DNA from: Lachnospiraceae bacterium
Lineage (GTDB): Bacteria > Bacillota > Clostridia > Lachnospirales > Lachnospiraceae
NCBI GenBank assembly: GCA_024681775.1
Contig: JAILAF010000022.1
Coordinates: forward strand, 80 to 64,079
Direction of reading: 5' to 3'
Length of the DNA: 64,000 nucleotides
In this document: positions 47,879 through 64,000 of the stretch, piece after piece
Numbering within the stretch: position 1 is the first letter of the stretch
Layout: the number at the start of each line of letters is the position of its first letter
Notes under the pieces: generated by a model
Databases searched by the model: none
Told to the model about the DNA's origin: nothing
What the model saw: only the letters and a program-made list of their open reading frames with translations
Program-made: the position numbers and the translations under genes

Positions 47879-49411
47879 ATGTACAGTTCGATCCAAACAT
47901 CCGCCCTTCTGGGCGTTGAAGCACTGCCTGTCCGCGTGGAGGTGGACATCTCCACGGGGCTCCCCGGCTTTACCATGGTGGGGAGCTTATGTCAGGAAGT
48001 CCGTGAATCCAAAGACCGGATCCAGGCCGCCATGAAAAACTGCGGGCTGGAGCTCCCGGCCTCCAAGATCACGGTGAACCTCTCTCCCGCCGACATCCAC
48101 AAGGACGGCACGGCCTATGATCTGCCCATTCTGATAGGGATCTTAAGCTGCCTCTCCTTCTTCCCACAGGAAGCGACCGAAGGGGTGCTCTTTCTGGGAG
48201 AGCTTGGACTGGGGGGCGAGGTAAAGAGCGTCCGGGGTGTCCTCCCCATTGTGCGAAAAGCCAGGGACTGGGGCATAAGCACCTGCATCGTTCCCGGGGC
48301 AAACGAACGGGAAGCTGCCGTGGTGCCGGGGATCCGGATCCGTTCCGCCACGCACATCAGGCAGGTGCTGGAATACCTGCAGACCGGGGCGGAGGATGCA
48401 CTGCCCGCGGCGAAGCCGGTGTCCGATGAGGAGGCCTGCGCGCCCGTTTCCGTCCCGGATTTTGCCGAAGTCTGCGGCCAGGAAAACGCAAAGCGGGCAG
48501 CCATAATCTCCGCTGCGGGATTCCACTCACTCCTCATGACAGGACCGCCGGGGGTTGGAAAGTCGCTGATCGCCAAGCGGATCCCCGGGATCCTGCCACC
48601 CTTAAATCTGGAGGAAAGTCTGGAAGTCACCTCGGTGCATTCCGTGGCGGGCCTCCTGCCCCCGGGTGTCCCTCTGATCCGGAACCGCATCTTCCAGGCG
48701 CCGCACCATTCTCTCTCCCTGCCCGCCCTCATCGGCGGGGGTGTCTCCCCCAGACCCGGCGCCATCTCTCTGGCCCACCGCTCCGTCCTTTTCCTGGATG
48801 AGCTGCCGGAATTCCAGAGAAACACCCTGGACAGCCTCCGGCAGCCTCTGGAGGATCACCGAATCCACATCGCAAGGGCCCGCTACAGCATCACCTATCC
48901 GGCGGATTTTCTCCTGATCTGTGCCATGAATCCCTGTCCCTGCGGCTACTATCCGGACCGGAACAAATGCAGGTGCTCCGAGACCCAGATCCGGCATTAC
49001 CTGGGCAAAGTCTCCGGTCCCATTCTGGACAGGATCGACCTGTGCGTGGAGCTGAAAGGGGTGGACCTGCGGGATATCCGAAAGCCTGCGGAAGGACTCT
49101 CTTCCGCGGAAATGCGCTCAGCTGTGGAGCGGGCCAGAAGCATGCAGCGGGAACGATACGCCGGGACCGGGATCCGCTTCAATTCCGACCTGTCCCCGGG
49201 GGAGATCGAGCGTTTCTGCGGTCTGGGACCGGGAGAGCAAGCCTATCTGGAGAGTGTCTATGACAAGATCGGCCTCAGCGCCAGGAGCTATCACCGCGTC
49301 CTGCGGGTGGCCCGGACCATCGCTGACCTGGAGGGGAGCGAGGCCATCGCCAGAAACCATCTCCTGGAAGCCATCTACTATCGCCCGGATCTGTCCTATT
49401 GGAAAGGGTAA
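47879..49411 (+). CDS. comM: YifB/ComM family Mg-chelatase-like AAA+ ATPase
   Basis: Start MYSSIQT after GGAGG; ITVNLSPADIHKDG, GPPGVGKS, PRPGAISLAHRSVLFLDELPEF, AMNPCPCG, SGPILDRID. Confidence 0.93.
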   Translation: MYSSIQTSALLGVEALPVRVEVDISTGLPGFTMVGSLCQEVRESKDRIQAAMKNCGLELPASKITVNLSPADIHKDGTAYDLPILIGILSCLSFFPQEATEGVLFLGELGLGGEVKSVRGVLPIVRKARDWGISTCIVPGANEREAAVVPGIRIRSATHIRQVLEYLQTGAEDALPAAKPVSDEEACAPVSVPDFAEVCGQENAKRAAIISAAGFHSLLMTGPPGVGKSLIAKRIPGILPPLNLEESLEVTSVHSVAGLLPPGVPLIRNRIFQAPHHSLSLPALIGGGVSPRPGAISLAHRSVLFLDELPEFQRNTLDSLRQPLEDHRIHIARARYSITYPADFLLICAMNPCPCGYYPDRNKCRCSETQIRHYLGKVSGPILDRIDLCVELKGVDLRDIRKPAEGLSSAEMRSAVERARSMQRERYAGTGIRFNSDLSPGEIERFCGLGPGEQAYLESVYDKIGLSARSYHRVLRVARTIADLEGSEAIARNHLLEAIYYRPDLSYWKG

Positions 49412-61958: not shown

Positions 61959-63311
61959 TTAAAGCTGCTTCATGATGAGATCAACAGCGGTCTCCATAGC
62001 CCTGTCACAGCCCTTTCGAAAATCCGAAAGGGTGACTGCCACTCTGACATCCGGCGAGAAACCTTTATTGTATATGTCTTCTCCGTTCTGCGCGAGGCAG
62101 CGTCTGGTACAGATGCGGTAGCTGCCGCCGCTTTCAAGCGGCACTATGTACGGCTGGCCGGAGGTTCCCGCCGTGTTGCTCCCGACAAAAAGCGCATTGG
62201 TGTGCATTTTCATGACGTCTACAAAATCTTCCGCAGCGGATCCCGTATCGCTGTTCATAAGCACCGCGACCGGGCCTTCCAGTTTCCCGGGAGCATTGTT
62301 CTGCACGTTGTCGCTCTCTCTCTGAAAGCAGATATGCCTGCACATCCGGTAGGATTTCAGACTCCTCTCGTCCCAGTGCATCTCCTCCGCATTCTCCGGC
62401 GATACCTTTTTGAAGTCTTCCCTAAACAAGCCCCACGCCTTATATGTAGGCTCATAGATCTGCGTCTCGGCGAGACAGCTCTCGAACTGCCCGGAGATAA
62501 ACAGGGCAGCGACCGCATCCGCATTATTGCTGTTCCCGCCCTCGTTTCCGCGGACATCGATGATATAGCCTTTTGCTCCGCGCAGCCCATCAAACTTCCC
62601 ATAGATCTTTCCGGGAACCGAATCGTCCATAAAGGTGGTGATCGTGATCATCGCGATGCCGTTCTCCGTGAGCCTGATCCTGACGGATTCCTCATCAAGG
62701 ATCATCTCCCCGGGAATGGTCTGGGGTACCGGCAGGCCGGAAGCATACCATTTTATCCCCGAAGCGTCGGTTCTCCGAAAGCCTGCGTCGAACAGTTTTC
62801 CGTCCTTTTCAAATGTCAGAAGCACTTCACTGCCGGCCTTTCCGTATAAAAGCTCGATCACTGCCGCCTTCGCGCAGGCTTCCTCATTCCCATGCCAGAT
62901 ATAAGGGTAGCATTTTTCGCGGATATGATCCCGGATATCCACGCCGTCAAACTTCTTCAGCACACTGAACATCGGGATCGTGTCTTTATACTCTTCCGCG
63001 ACACTTAATACCACATACTCTTCTTCGATCTTCACAAGATAAAGCGGGAGCATCGAATAGTATTCCGCGCTCTGCCGGACATCCGCCGGAAAGCTGATCC
63101 CGGTATGCCCGTCACCGAGCAGATTTAAAAAGCGTGCAAGCTCCCGATAGTATTCGTATACATCCGAAGCCTCAAGCACCCGCGGGAGCGCTTTTTTATA
63201 CTCCCCGTCCCAATCGACACTCACCCTGTCCCAGAACGCGAAATTATACTCTGCATCCTTCCAGATCTTTGACAGCTCGTAGATTTTCTGTTCGTCCGAA
63301 ATCGTTCTCAT
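61959..63311 (-). CDS. S41 family peptidase without a signal peptide
   Basis: Start MRTISDEQ (63311); IIDVRGNEGG, TGSAAEDF (catalytic Ser region), VGSNTAG, GFSPDV. Confidence 0.88.
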   Translation of the reverse strand: MRTISDEQKIYELSKIWKDAEYNFAFWDRVSVDWDGEYKKALPRVLEASDVYEYYRELARFLNLLGDGHTGISFPADVRQSAEYYSMLPLYLVKIEEEYVVLSVAEEYKDTIPMFSVLKKFDGVDIRDHIREKCYPYIWHGNEEACAKAAVIELLYGKAGSEVLLTFEKDGKLFDAGFRRTDASGIKWYASGLPVPQTIPGEMILDEESVRIRLTENGIAMITITTFMDDSVPGKIYGKFDGLRGAKGYIIDVRGNEGGNSNNADAVAALFISGQFESCLAETQIYEPTYKAWGLFREDFKKVSPENAEEMHWDERSLKSYRMCRHICFQRESDNVQNNAPGKLEGPVAVLMNSDTGSAAEDFVDVMKMHTNALFVGSNTAGTSGQPYIVPLESGGSYRICTRRCLAQNGEDIYNKGFSPDVRVAVTLSDFRKGCDRAMETAVDLIMKQL

Positions 63312-63313
63312 AT

Positions 63314-63577
63314 TCAGGCCTCCACCAGTTCCTTCCATACTGCTTCAAACACCTGATCCGTATCAAAATCCGGTGCAAAACGCCCCGCGATATCACAGAT
63401 CAGCTGCACCCTTATCTCATCCTCTTCCACCTCATCCGCAATCTGCGGAACGTCCTTGCCTCTGCGAAGCTTTCTGCAGATTTGATCGATCAAATGGCGT
63501 TCTGATCCTTTCTCTATTCCTTTCTCTATTCCTTTCTCTATTCCTTTTTCCATAAAGATCTCTGCAAATCCTTCCAT
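63314..63577 (-). CDS. Candidate intragenic small protein (Rpn-S-like, 87 aa)
   Basis: Perfect SD AGGAGGT (63591-63585), 7-nt spacer, in-frame ATG at 63577 (MEGFAEIFMEKG...). Confidence 0.6.
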   Translation of the reverse strand: MEGFAEIFMEKGIEKGIEKGIEKGSERHLIDQICRKLRRGKDVPQIADEVEEDEIRVQLICDIAGRFAPDFDTDQVFEAVWKELVEA

Positions 63578-64000
63578 TGTTTTTACCTCCTCCGCGACCT
63601 GTGGTCTGCTTTCTATATCTACGTACTTTTTTACTGCTTCCGTCTTTCCCGCATTTACACTTTCGATATACTCAAATACACTGTTTTCAGGAACCTCACT
63701 GCCCAGGCGGACGAACACGACACTCATCAGGTCATAGTTTTCCGCTGCATCCGGCGTATCCCCGATCAGATCCCGTTTCTTTAACTCTATGAGACTCACG
63801 CTGTTCTGCAGTACTTTCGGCACATCCCGTACCATCACCCAGATGCTGTAACACTTCTCCAACGCCCCATAGTCCGTCACATGGGTACTGTAGGAAAGCT
63901 GCGAGCACAATTCCCTTGCCACATAATATACCGCCCTCTTTTCCGGCGGATATGACTTCTTCGCACCCTTATCCGTCACATAGTAGCGGTTCTGGATCTC
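63314..64000 (-). CDS. Rpn/YhgA-like PD-(D/E)XK nuclease family protein (5' end outside the window)
   Basis: Frame open to the window edge: EIQNRYY...RAVYYVARELCSQL, CYSIWV, YDLMSVVFVRL; C-terminal (EKGI)n repeats. Confidence 0.85.
   Translation of the reverse strand, partial: EIQNRYYVTDKGAKKSYPPEKRAVYYVARELCSQLSYSTHVTDYGALEKCYSIWVMVRDVPKVLQNSVSLIELKKRDLIGDTPDAAENYDLMSVVFVRLGSEVPENSVFEYIESVNAGKTEAVKKYVDIESRPQVAEEVKTMEGFAEIFMEKGIEKGIEKGIEKGSERHLIDQICRKLRRGKDVPQIADEVEEDEIRVQLICDIAGRFAPDFDTDQVFEAVWKELVEA
63506..63553 (-). repeat. 12-bp tandem repeat encoding (I/M)EKG x4
   Basis: tcctttctctat x3 plus tcctttttccat. Confidence 0.95.

What the first reader, a model, noticed from the sequence alone, without database searches (positions are those of the whole stretch)
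63314..63593. Gene-within-a-gene: perfect SD and ATG predict a small antitoxin inside the Rpn nuclease
Seen: GGAGGAGGT-aaaaaca-ATG in frame at 63577, just before the (EKG)4 repeat, giving an 87-aa C-terminal protein with an HTH-like end (GKDVPQIADEVEED). Known: enterobacterial Rpn/YhgA-like PD-(D/E)XK proteins were reported to be toxic anti-phage nucleases neutralised by small proteins translated from internal starts in their variable C-termini. Inference: the same nested toxin-antitoxin architecture in a clostridial homologue.
Basis: partly seen in the sequence, partly recalled or inferred. Interest (0 to 1): 0.7.

Follow-up and report, generated by a model that had tools for sequence, protein, structure and literature searches.

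The report
Small gene nested in Rpn-like nuclease
The end of a nuclease gene from a rumen Lachnospiraceae bacterium carries its own conserved ribosome-binding site and start codon for a separate 87-residue protein, the published "antitoxin inside a toxin" (Rpn) layout, so it is a well-supported new example of a known system and not a new kind.

Summary
On the minus strand, GGAGGAGGT (63593-63585), 7 nt, then an in-frame ATG (63577) open an 87-codon ORF ending at the host gene's stop (63314). It has the strongest SD pairing of 361 internal in-frame ATGs in the window.

In 74 homologues (28-67% identity) the same column is ATG 56 times, Val 15 times (always GTG), Leu once (TTG) and Ile (ATT) once, directly followed by ATG. 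The two codons that supply the SD are always GAG and AAG, against 41% elsewhere in these genes. That points to selection on an internal translation start, not on protein sequence alone.

The "(EKG)4" is really a perfect 12-nt, four-residue unit (EKGI) x3.5, starting at residue 10 of the small product. Its copy number differs between alleles of this locus. These features match the RpnL/RpnS nested toxin-antitoxin of Zhong et al. 2023, who also tested a Clostridioides difficile gene.

- The nuclease core lies mostly outside the window.
- The family misses curated Rpn/PDDEXK_2 cut-offs.
- Toxicity, neutralisation and phage defence are untested.

Verdict: new member of a known kind. Interest is moderate to low.

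The parts
63314..64000 (-). 3' part (codons ~115-338 plus stop) of an Rpn-like PD-(D/E)XK nuclease gene (the long form). Its 5' third lies beyond the window end.
   Evidence: ORF and translation. It is 95% identical to the full-length 338-aa P0001. Weak PF12784 and TIGR01784 hits.
63585..63593 (-). Internal Shine-Dalgarno sequence GGAGGAGGT, encoded by Glu-Glu-Val codons.
   Evidence: Strongest anti-SD pairing of 361 internal in-frame ATGs in the window. AGGAGG is conserved at the same spacing in about 82-85% of homologues, with GAG 55/55 and AAG 28/28 at the SD codons. Predicted unpaired in the local RNA fold.
63575..63577 (-). Internal in-frame start codon ATG, 7 nt after GGAGGAGGT (8 nt after the AGGAGG core).
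   Evidence: In 74 homologues the column holds ATG 56, GTG 15, TTG 1, ATT followed by ATG 1, and one alignment gap. It is one of 12 invariant columns in a 64-protein alignment.
63314..63577 (-). Nested ORF for the 87-aa RpnS-like small protein (predicted antitoxin), in the same frame and with the same stop as the long form.
   Evidence: Gene callers call equivalent small ORFs P0121-P0124 elsewhere. P0121 is free-standing, with an in-frame stop 15 codons upstream and its own SD.
63506..63547 (-). Perfect 12-nt tandem repeat x3.5 encoding (EKGI)3-EKG. It starts at residue 10 of the small product and is copy-number polymorphic.
   Evidence: TRF. One unit fewer in L084 and in sheep-gut contigs X2/X3. 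L091 and L083 carry other counts.
63317..63505 (-). 63-residue helical tail (SERHLIDQICRKLRRGKDVPQIADEVEED...). It is an exchangeable module found on other N-terminal domains and as stand-alone ORFs.
   Evidence: AF2 pLDDT 90-95 over residues 30-80. The same tail is present in P0010, P0015, P0018, P0019, P0048, P0037 and P0121-P0124.
61959..63311 (-). Neighbour, not part of the system: an S41 peptidase gene starting 3 nt after the rpn stop, with its SD (GGAGG, 63323-63319) inside the last rpn codons.
   Evidence: Pfam PF03572 at E 4e-26. It lies downstream only in same-locus alleles and in none of the other family loci.

Best explanation
The gene at 63314..>64000 (minus strand) is a divergent Lachnospiraceae member of the Rpn-like PD-(D/E)XK nuclease superfamily, and it encodes two products in one frame.

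Ribosomes starting at the gene's own start, which lies outside the window, make the roughly 340-aa long form: a nuclease core, a long helix carrying the four-residue repeats, and a helical tail. Ribosomes recruited by the internal SD GGAGGAGGT start at ATG 63577 and make an 87-aa short form, which is the repeat helix plus the tail.

By analogy with E. coli RpnL/RpnS, the short form would pair with the identical repeat helix and tail of the long form and block its nuclease activity. The number of EKGI repeats would set which short form fits which long form.

Status of each step:
- Shown here: the anatomy, the codon-level conservation of the internal start, the repeat polymorphism, and the modular or stand-alone occurrence of the tail.
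- Inferred: that two products are actually made.
- Inferred by analogy: that the long form is toxic, that the short form neutralises it, and that the pair defends against phage.
For: 1. Anatomy: SD, 7 nt, then an in-frame ATG, giving 87 codons. It ranks 1 of 361 internal in-frame ATGs in the window for SD strength. The SD and ATG are unpaired in the local RNA fold.

2. Family-wide conservation in a fixed alignment column of 74 sequences at 28-67% identity: ATG 56, Val 15 (always GTG, against 33% GTG for Val elsewhere in these genes), Leu once (TTG), and Ile (ATT) once, directly followed by ATG. Codon -4 is Glu GAG in 55/55 (41% elsewhere). Codon -5 is Lys AAG in 28/28 (41% elsewhere) and Gln CAG in 12/12. 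SD energy is -9 kcal/mol or stronger in 82-85% of these sites, against 1.5% of 856-1158 other in-frame NTG codons of the same genes.

3. The start lies 11 residues before the first repeat Gly in 53/65 genes.

4. The repeat is a perfect dodecamer and varies in number among alleles of this same locus (L083, L084, L091, and contigs in runs X2/X3). This matches the published RpnS signature (PMC10400941).

5. The E. coli rpnA internal start, which was validated by mutation, has the same build: AAGGAG encoded by Lys-Glu, 6 nt, then ATG.

6. The tail occurs as stand-alone small ORFs (P0121, P0037) and on three other N-terminal domains. Each of those has a single strong SD+ATG just before its repeats.

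7. Nuclease identity:
- Relatives hit TIGR01784 'Rpn family' at E 7e-9 to 6e-5, and RpnA hits it at 5e-47.
- RpnA residues D11, D63, E82, Q84 and R94, all defined by mutation (PMC5350276), align with family-invariant D19, D91, E115, Q117 and R136.
- The full-length AF2 model (pLDDT 82) best matches McrC, NotI and BamHI.
Against: - No expression data resolve two products. Metatranscriptome contigs cover both sides of the internal start at about 2x only.
- No sigma-70-like internal promoter was found on the gene's strand.
- Curated family cut-offs are not reached: PF12784 scores 21.5 bits against a cut-off of 27.4, and P0001 has no TIGR01784 hit.
- Profile-profile comparison with RpnA is not significant.
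- The 87-aa model has no significant PDB match, and no RpnAS entry is among the 50 matches listed. There is no DUF4351 hit.
- The visible genomic neighbours are housekeeping genes (S41 peptidase, gap-pgk-tpi, lepA, hemN), not a defence island.
- The 5' third of this copy is outside the window. The close allele L083 has an in-frame deletion that removes the catalytic Asp (D91), and L001 has a nonsense codon at position 9. Integrity of this copy's toxin half is therefore unknown, although the window-type allele L091 is intact where it can be seen.
Confidence: 0.72

Rival explanations
1. The small protein is made from the internal start, but it is not an antitoxin. It would be a required subunit or regulator of the long form, like Cas11d made from inside cas10d, or an autonomous HTH-type DNA-binding regulator.
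For: The conserved internal start shows a second product but not its role. The best structural matches of the tail are LuxR/GerE-type HTH domains. Zhong et al. themselves cite the complementary Cas10d/Cas11d case. The locus is not in a visible defence island.
Against: The HTH matches are not significant (E about 0.9). The repeat-number polymorphism and tail swapping fit a specificity-tuned inhibitor, as shown for E. coli RpnC. Natural alleles with a broken long form but an intact small ORF fit a toxin under counter-selection.
Confidence: 0.15
2. The SD-like sequence and the Met are conserved for reasons other than initiation. For example, they could form an internal SD-like ribosome pause site between domains, together with a structurally required Met. 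Only the full-length protein would be made.
For: SD-like motifs inside genes can slow elongation (general knowledge). The motif sits at a domain boundary, just before the long repeat helix. There is no direct evidence of a second product for this gene.
Against: A pause site needs no start codon at fixed spacing. Yet every substitution of the Met keeps a start codon: Val is always GTG (15/15) and Leu is TTG. Free-standing small ORFs begin at exactly this Met with their own SD. The homologous E. coli and C. difficile sites are proven starts.
Confidence: 0.06
3. Chance or decay. This particular copy is a degenerating remnant of a mobile element, and the SD-ATG has no present function here.
For: The 5' part is not visible. 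Close alleles carry an N-terminal deletion (L083) or a nonsense codon (L001). The gene family is patchy and recombining.
Against: The visible 687 nt are an intact ORF. The SD, ATG and tail are identical or at most 1% diverged across four alleles of the locus. The window-type allele L091 keeps the catalytic FDVHV...LHIDLEIQ stretch.
Confidence: 0.07

Closest known systems
E. coli RpnA-E / RpnP2 long and short forms (RpnL/RpnS), Zhong et al. 2023, PNAS (PMC10400941)
   Same: - In-frame internal SD and start in the C-terminal third; compare rpnA AAGGAG-6 nt-ATG at M244.
- The small product is a long helix with four-residue repeats (one hydrophobic plus three charged or Gly residues) starting 8-20 residues after the Met, here residue 10.
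- Repeat number varies between strains.
- Stand-alone copies of the small gene exist.
- The N-terminal domain carries the D...ExQ...R residues that are essential in RpnA.
   Different: - The nuclease domain is far diverged: nearest Pfam model PF12784 PDDEXK_2, not PF04754, and below curated cut-offs.
- hhalign against RpnA is not significant.
- The tail is unrelated in sequence and is predicted as a long helix plus three short helices, whereas RpnAS is a three-helix bundle. No significant PDB match was found.
- No internal promoter was found.
- No functional data exist for this gene.
Clostridioides difficile rpn gene tested by Zhong et al. 2023
   Same: It comes from a member of class Clostridia, like the Lachnospiraceae relatives found here. 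It has an internal RBS and start giving an RpnS, shown in E. coli and lost on RBS/iTIS mutation, and its four-residue repeats vary between strains.
   Different: The host family is different (Lachnospiraceae from rumen and gut, uncultured). Sequence relatedness to that particular gene could not be checked, because the paper's supplement is not held.
YpaA/RpnESs and DUF4351 (PF14261) stand-alone small Rpn proteins
   Same: The tail of this gene also exists as free-standing small ORFs with their own SD (P0121 in L082). P0037 lies 43 nt downstream of a 311-aa gene.
   Different: PF14261 did not hit the 87-aa product, even at E up to 1.
Cas11d made from an internal start in cas10d (type I-D CRISPR)
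   Same: A small C-terminal product is translated from an in-frame internal start of a larger defence gene (cited in PMC10400941).
   Different: There the small product is a required subunit, not an inhibitor. There is no repeat-length specificity and the protein families are unrelated.

Membership tests
Rpn nested toxin-antitoxin (RpnL/RpnS) | N-terminal Rpn/YhgA-type PD-(D/E)XK nuclease domain (PF04754 / TIGR01784 / COG5464) | tested here: inconclusive
   - The window holds the gene only from E115 onward.
- Orthologue P0001 scores PF12784 at E 2e-4, below the cut-off, and has no TIGR01784 hit.
- Relatives P0013, P0008, P0009 and P0006 hit TIGR01784 at E 7e-9 to 6e-5, also below the cut-off. 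RpnA hits it at 5e-47.
- hhalign against RpnA is not significant, but D11, D63, E82, Q84 and R94 align with invariant family columns.
- Foldseek's best match is McrC, at E 0.028 and probability 0.91.
Rpn nested toxin-antitoxin (RpnL/RpnS) | In-frame internal translation start (SD plus start codon) in the C-terminal third | tested here: met
   GGAGGAGGT, 7 nt, then ATG at 63577. Conserved at the codon level in 74 homologues, where substitutions are only GTG or TTG and the SD codons are always GAG and AAG.
Rpn nested toxin-antitoxin (RpnL/RpnS) | Four-residue repeats (one hydrophobic plus three charged or Gly) beginning 8-20 residues after the initiating Met | tested here: met
   (EKGI)3-EKG begins at residue 10. 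The 12-nt unit is present x3.5 at 100% identity. The criterion is taken from PMC10400941.
Rpn nested toxin-antitoxin (RpnL/RpnS) | Repeat number varies among strains of one species | tested here: met
   At the same locus (S41 peptidase gene downstream), the window has 3.5 units, L084 and the X2/X3 contigs have 2.5, and L091 and L083 have other counts.
Rpn nested toxin-antitoxin (RpnL/RpnS) | The small product is an all-helical domain whose long first helix carries the repeats (RpnAS crystal structure) | tested here: inconclusive
   The AF2 model has a helix at 14-38 plus three short helices, with pLDDT 77 and residues 1-19 at low confidence. No significant PDB match was found, and no RpnAS entry is among the 50 matches listed. 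phmmer against PDB found nothing.
Rpn nested toxin-antitoxin (RpnL/RpnS) | Internal promoter or TSS giving a short transcript | tested here: inconclusive
   The consensus scan found no sigma-70-like site on the minus strand in 63577-64000. The metatranscriptome contigs are uninformative.
Rpn nested toxin-antitoxin (RpnL/RpnS) | Two products are made; the long form is a toxic DNA endonuclease; the short form binds and neutralises it; the pair gives phage protection | not testable with these tools
   This needs expression, toxicity, binding and phage assays.
Rpn nested toxin-antitoxin (RpnL/RpnS) | Enrichment in defence islands (a supportive feature, not a defining one) | tested here: not met
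   The visible side holds an S41 peptidase gene, gap-pgk-tpi, lepA and hemN. The upstream neighbour in allele L083 has only a weak DUF7601 hit.
Pfam PF12784 PDDEXK_2 | Score at or above the gathering threshold (27.4 bits) | tested here: not met
   P0001 scores 21.5 bits and the window fragment 16.8 bits. More distant relatives (P0006-P0009 and others) carry precomputed PF12784 hits.
Pfam PF14261 DUF4351 (stand-alone RpnS-like proteins) | Profile match of the small product | tested here: not met
   No PF14261 hit at E up to 1 for the 87-aa product.

The most novel reading that the evidence does not exclude
The repeat helix, the tail and their own SD and start codon would form a self-contained cassette. 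Recombination at the 12-nt repeats would exchange it between very different Rpn-like nuclease domains.

What was seen that fits this:
- 80-95% identical nuclease parts carry unrelated tails.
- One tail sits on four mutually unalignable N-terminal domains and also occurs as solo ORFs.
- Alleles with a knocked-out long form keep an intact small ORF. These could persist as orphan antitoxins that neutralise incoming or paralogous Rpn toxins.

This would extend the Rpn model from repeat-number tuning to whole-module swapping.
Probability: 0.3. Interest if true: 0.5.

Novelty: new member of a known kind. Interest (0 to 1): 0.32.

Why it matters
It shows that the nested-antitoxin layout described for E. 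coli Rpn proteins also holds in a large, poorly annotated family of Lachnospiraceae 'hypothetical proteins' from rumen and gut. Standard profiles (PF12784, TIGR01784) do not capture this family.

The support is synonymous-codon evidence, a purely computational test that could be reused to find other genes-within-genes. For annotation, one gene call here hides two products.

For biology, the natural series of alleles differing by single EKGI units, the swapped tails and the broken long forms are ready-made material for testing how repeat number sets toxin-antitoxin specificity. The finding does not change the concept.

Tried and rejected
- The homologue search with the 63-aa tail alone returned only 4 proteins, because of the word-index limit for short queries. 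The tail's true spread is therefore underestimated.
- phmmer of the 87-aa product against PDB sequences found nothing.
- Foldseek of the 87-aa model and of the full-length model gave no match at E <= 0.001. No RpnAS entry is among the 50 matches listed for the 87-aa model, so fold-level identity with RpnS could not be shown.
- hhalign of the family profile against RpnA, with 9 and with 69 sequences, was not significant. It was used only for residue correspondence.
- The promoter consensus scan found no internal promoter on the gene's strand.
- Metatranscriptome contigs from bovine and sheep gut were laid on the locus. Coverage was about 2x on both sides of the internal start, so they say nothing about a short transcript.
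- PADLOC gave only a weak 'putative invertase' candidate-model hit.
- The supplement of Zhong et al. is not held, so no direct comparison with their C. difficile sequence was possible.
- I considered the S41 peptidase gene, which starts 3 nt after the rpn stop, as a system component and rejected it. It is downstream only in same-locus alleles and in none of the other family loci.
- I considered whether the window copy shares the N-terminal deletion of L083. This cannot be decided from the window. The window-type allele L091 is intact over the 113 nt that it extends beyond the window end.

Full report
**Observation**

The feature lies on the minus strand. GGAGGAGGT occupies 63593-63585, followed by aaaaaca (63584-63578) and ATG (63577-63575). 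The ATG is in frame with a long ORF that enters from beyond the window end and stops at TGA 63316-63314. The nested ORF is 87 codons:

MEGFAEIFMEKGIEKGIEKGIEKGSERHLIDQICRKLRRGKDVPQIADEVEEDEIRVQLICDIAGRFAPDFDTDQVFEAVWKELVEA.

Tandem Repeats Finder gives period 12, 3.5 copies and 100% identity at 63506-63547, that is (EKGI)3-EKG starting at residue 10 of the small product. Only 228 codons of the host gene are in the window.

**Is it more than chance?**

I took 43 long ORFs of the window as proxy genes and scored pairing to the anti-SD upstream of each of their 361 internal in-frame ATGs. The site at 63577 ranks first, at -13.1 kcal/mol against -10.7 for the next. Only 5 of the 361 have GGAGG at -16..-5. 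In the predicted local RNA fold the SD and ATG are unpaired, and the region is not unusually structured (z = -1.6).

**What the gene is**

- A protein search with the 228-aa fragment found a 95%-identical full-length protein, P0001 (338 aa), and 560 proteins in all at E <= 0.001; the 120 best listed are mostly 300-400 aa, many with precomputed PF12784 (PDDEXK_2) hits.
- P0001 itself scores PF12784 only below threshold (E 2e-4; 21.5 bits against 27.4) and does not hit NCBIfam TIGR01784, the 'Rpn family' model.
- Relatives P0013, P0008, P0009 and P0006 hit TIGR01784 at E 7e-9 to 6e-5, also below the curated 52-bit cut-off. E. coli RpnA hits it at 5e-47.
- Profile-profile comparison of the family with RpnA is not significant. 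In that alignment, however, the RpnA residues whose mutation abolishes or alters its phenotypes (D11, D63, E82, Q84, R94; Kingston et al. 2017, PMC5350276) fall on D19, D91, E115, Q117 and R136. Those five are among only 12 invariant columns of a 64-protein alignment.
- An AF2 model of P0001 (pLDDT 82) has an alpha/beta core followed by a 43-residue helix and three short helices. Its best PDB matches are PD-(D/E)XK enzymes (McrC at E 0.028 and probability 0.91, then NotI and BamHI), none significant.

I conclude that this is a distant relative of the Rpn nucleases. It is not a member by curated thresholds.

**Comparative test of the internal start**

A scan of one genome per species returned 80 loci, almost all Lachnospiraceae from rumen and gut.

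Fixed-column test. I aligned the region from the conserved YSIW motif onward and read the codon in the column of the window's Met in all 74 alignable sequences (28-67% identity to P0001). This involves no selection on codon type. The column holds:
- ATG 56 times;
- Val 15 times, every time GTG, although GTG is only 33% of Val codons elsewhere in these genes;
- Leu once, as TTG;
- Ile (ATT) once, immediately followed by ATG;
- one alignment gap (L066), which is a GTG preceded by AGGAGGT by inspection.

The Val cases fall into about eight sequence-distinct groups. If those are independent events, the probability that all are GTG is about 1e-4 (my estimate).

SD codons and energies. These counts come from a second scan. 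For each of 65 genes it took the NTG codon with the strongest SD pairing within 30 codons upstream of the repeat. That choice leans towards strong SDs, but it picked the same aligned position (11 residues before the first repeat Gly) in 53 of 65 genes, and the upstream sequences read in the unselected column show the same AGGAGG.
- Codon -4 is Glu GAG in 55 of 55, never GAA; GAG is 41% of Glu codons elsewhere.
- Codon -5 is Lys AAG in 28 of 28 (41% elsewhere) or Gln CAG in 12 of 12.
- Together they spell (A/C/G)AGGAGG(T/C) 8 nt before the start.
- SD pairing of -9 kcal/mol or stronger occurs at 82-85% of these sites, against 1.5% of 856-1158 other in-frame NTG codons of the same genes.

Selection at synonymous positions, together with start-codon-preserving substitutions, is what an internal translation start predicts. 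Protein-level constraint alone does not predict it.

**Fit to the published system**

Zhong et al. 2023 (PMC10400941) showed the following for E. coli rpn genes:
- They make a small C-terminal protein, RpnS, from an internal start.
- RpnS binds and inhibits the toxic full-length endonuclease, RpnL.
- Both forms share a helix with four-residue repeats, one hydrophobic plus three charged or Gly residues. The repeats begin 8-20 residues after the initiating Met, vary in number between strains and set pairing specificity.
- Stand-alone copies of the small gene exist (DUF4351).
- A Clostridioides difficile rpn gene also yields an RpnS in E. coli, and this depends on the predicted RBS and start.

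The validated rpnA site reads AAGGAG-agttta-ATG, with the SD encoded by Lys240-Glu241. That is the same construction as here.

The repeat criterion is met (EKGI, from residue 10). Strain variation is also met. Contigs L083, L084 and L091 are the same locus, with the same S41 peptidase gene starting 3 nt after the stop, and they carry different repeat counts. Two sheep-gut metagenome runs carry a contig with exactly one 12-nt unit missing at 63506.

**The tail as a module**

- The 63-residue tail recurs as gene calls of 79-87 aa (P0121-P0124).
- In L082 the small ORF is free-standing, with an in-frame stop 15 codons upstream and its own SD, AAGGAGGG.
- P0037 (133 aa) lies 43 nt after a 311-aa gene.
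- The same tail is fused to three other N-terminal domains (P0010, P0015, P0048). Each has exactly one strong SD+ATG just before its repeats.
- Conversely, L001 and L002 share 80-95% DNA identity with the window gene up to the repeats and then switch abruptly to an unrelated tail.

The AF2 model of the 87-aa product (pLDDT 77) has an uncertain N-terminus, a helix at 14-38 carrying the repeats, and three short helices. Foldseek finds only non-significant LuxR/GerE-type HTH matches. 'HTH-like' therefore remains a weak suggestion, and identity of fold with RpnAS is not shown.

**State of the long form**

The 5' third of this copy is outside the window. Allele L083, the closest to the window over the visible part, has a clean in-frame deletion of about 290 nt that removes residues about 9-105, including D91. 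L001 has GAA>TAA at codon 9. In both, the internal start and small ORF are intact. Allele L091 has the window-type sequence and is intact through FDVHV...LHIDLEIQ. The window copy may well be intact, but this is unknown. Broken long forms fit counter-selection of a toxin, but they also fit ordinary decay or assembly error.

**Context and expression**

- The visible side holds an S41 peptidase gene (its SD lies inside the last rpn codons), then gap-pgk-tpi, lepA and hemN. This is not a defence island.
- The S41 gene accompanies only this locus, so I do not count it as part of the system.
- No internal sigma-70-like promoter was found.
- Rumen metatranscriptome contigs touch the gene at about 2x on both sides of the start and decide nothing.
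- There is no second family member in the window.

**Conclusion**

An internal translation start for an 87-aa C-terminal protein is very likely: about 0.85 for the start itself, and 0.72 for the full RpnL/RpnS-like mechanism. The toxin-antitoxin and anti-phage roles are inference by analogy.

This is a new, divergent member of a kind already described, including in a member of the Clostridia, so novelty is modest. The codon-level evidence, the natural repeat-number series, the tail swapping and the broken long forms are the useful additions.

Noticed in passing
L001 and L002, compared with window 63314-64000: The nuclease parts are 80-95% identical to the window gene up to the 12-nt repeats. 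The sequence then switches abruptly to an unrelated C-terminal tail (SEQKRKEMNDLISWLIGQ...). This suggests recombination at the repeats.
   Followed up: partly
L086 codon 242, L087 codon 258, L088 codon 214: The window's tail module sits on three other, mutually unalignable N-terminal domains. One is weakly PF04754/YhgA-like. Each carries exactly one strong internal SD+ATG (-11.0 to -12.4 kcal/mol) just before its repeats.
   Followed up: partly
L083 (about 1591-1640) and L001 (about 342-365): Close alleles have a disrupted long form but an intact internal start and small ORF. L083 has an in-frame deletion of about 290 nt that removes residues about 9-105, including the catalytic Asp (D91). 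L001 has GAA>TAA at codon 9. Assembly error is not excluded.
   Followed up: partly
window 61959-63323: An S41 peptidase gene starts at ATG 63311, 3 nt after the rpn stop, with its SD (GGAGG, 63323-63319) inside the last rpn codons. This implies co-transcription. The pairing occurs only at this locus and not at the other family loci.
   Followed up: yes
window 63406-63457: In sheep-gut metagenome contigs (runs X2, X3), depth jumps to 35-63x over the stretch encoding IADEVEEDEIRV, against about 10x on either side, and contigs branch there. The tail segment is therefore shared by several genes in that community.
   Followed up: no
window 63314-64000, compared with L084: Divergence is mosaic: 8.3% in the nuclease part, 4% in the 120 nt before the internal start, 0-1% in the start, repeat and tail, and 4.9% in the S41 gene. 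This suggests recent exchange or a sweep of the tail region.
   Followed up: no
window 63317-63700 (protein residues 109-171 of the fragment): There is a weak PADLOC hit to the candidate-system model PDLC01084 'C3a178 putative invertase' (E 1e-4), a 90-residue profile covering the internal start and repeat region. P0010 and P0013 also hit it.
   Followed up: no
window 32447 (minus strand): This is the second-strongest internal in-frame SD+ATG in the window (TCAAGGAGGACATGGACTTCATG, -10.7 kcal/mol), 41 codons before its ORF's stop. Sites at 47879(+) and 52975(-) may simply be true gene starts inside stop-to-stop ORFs.
   Followed up: no
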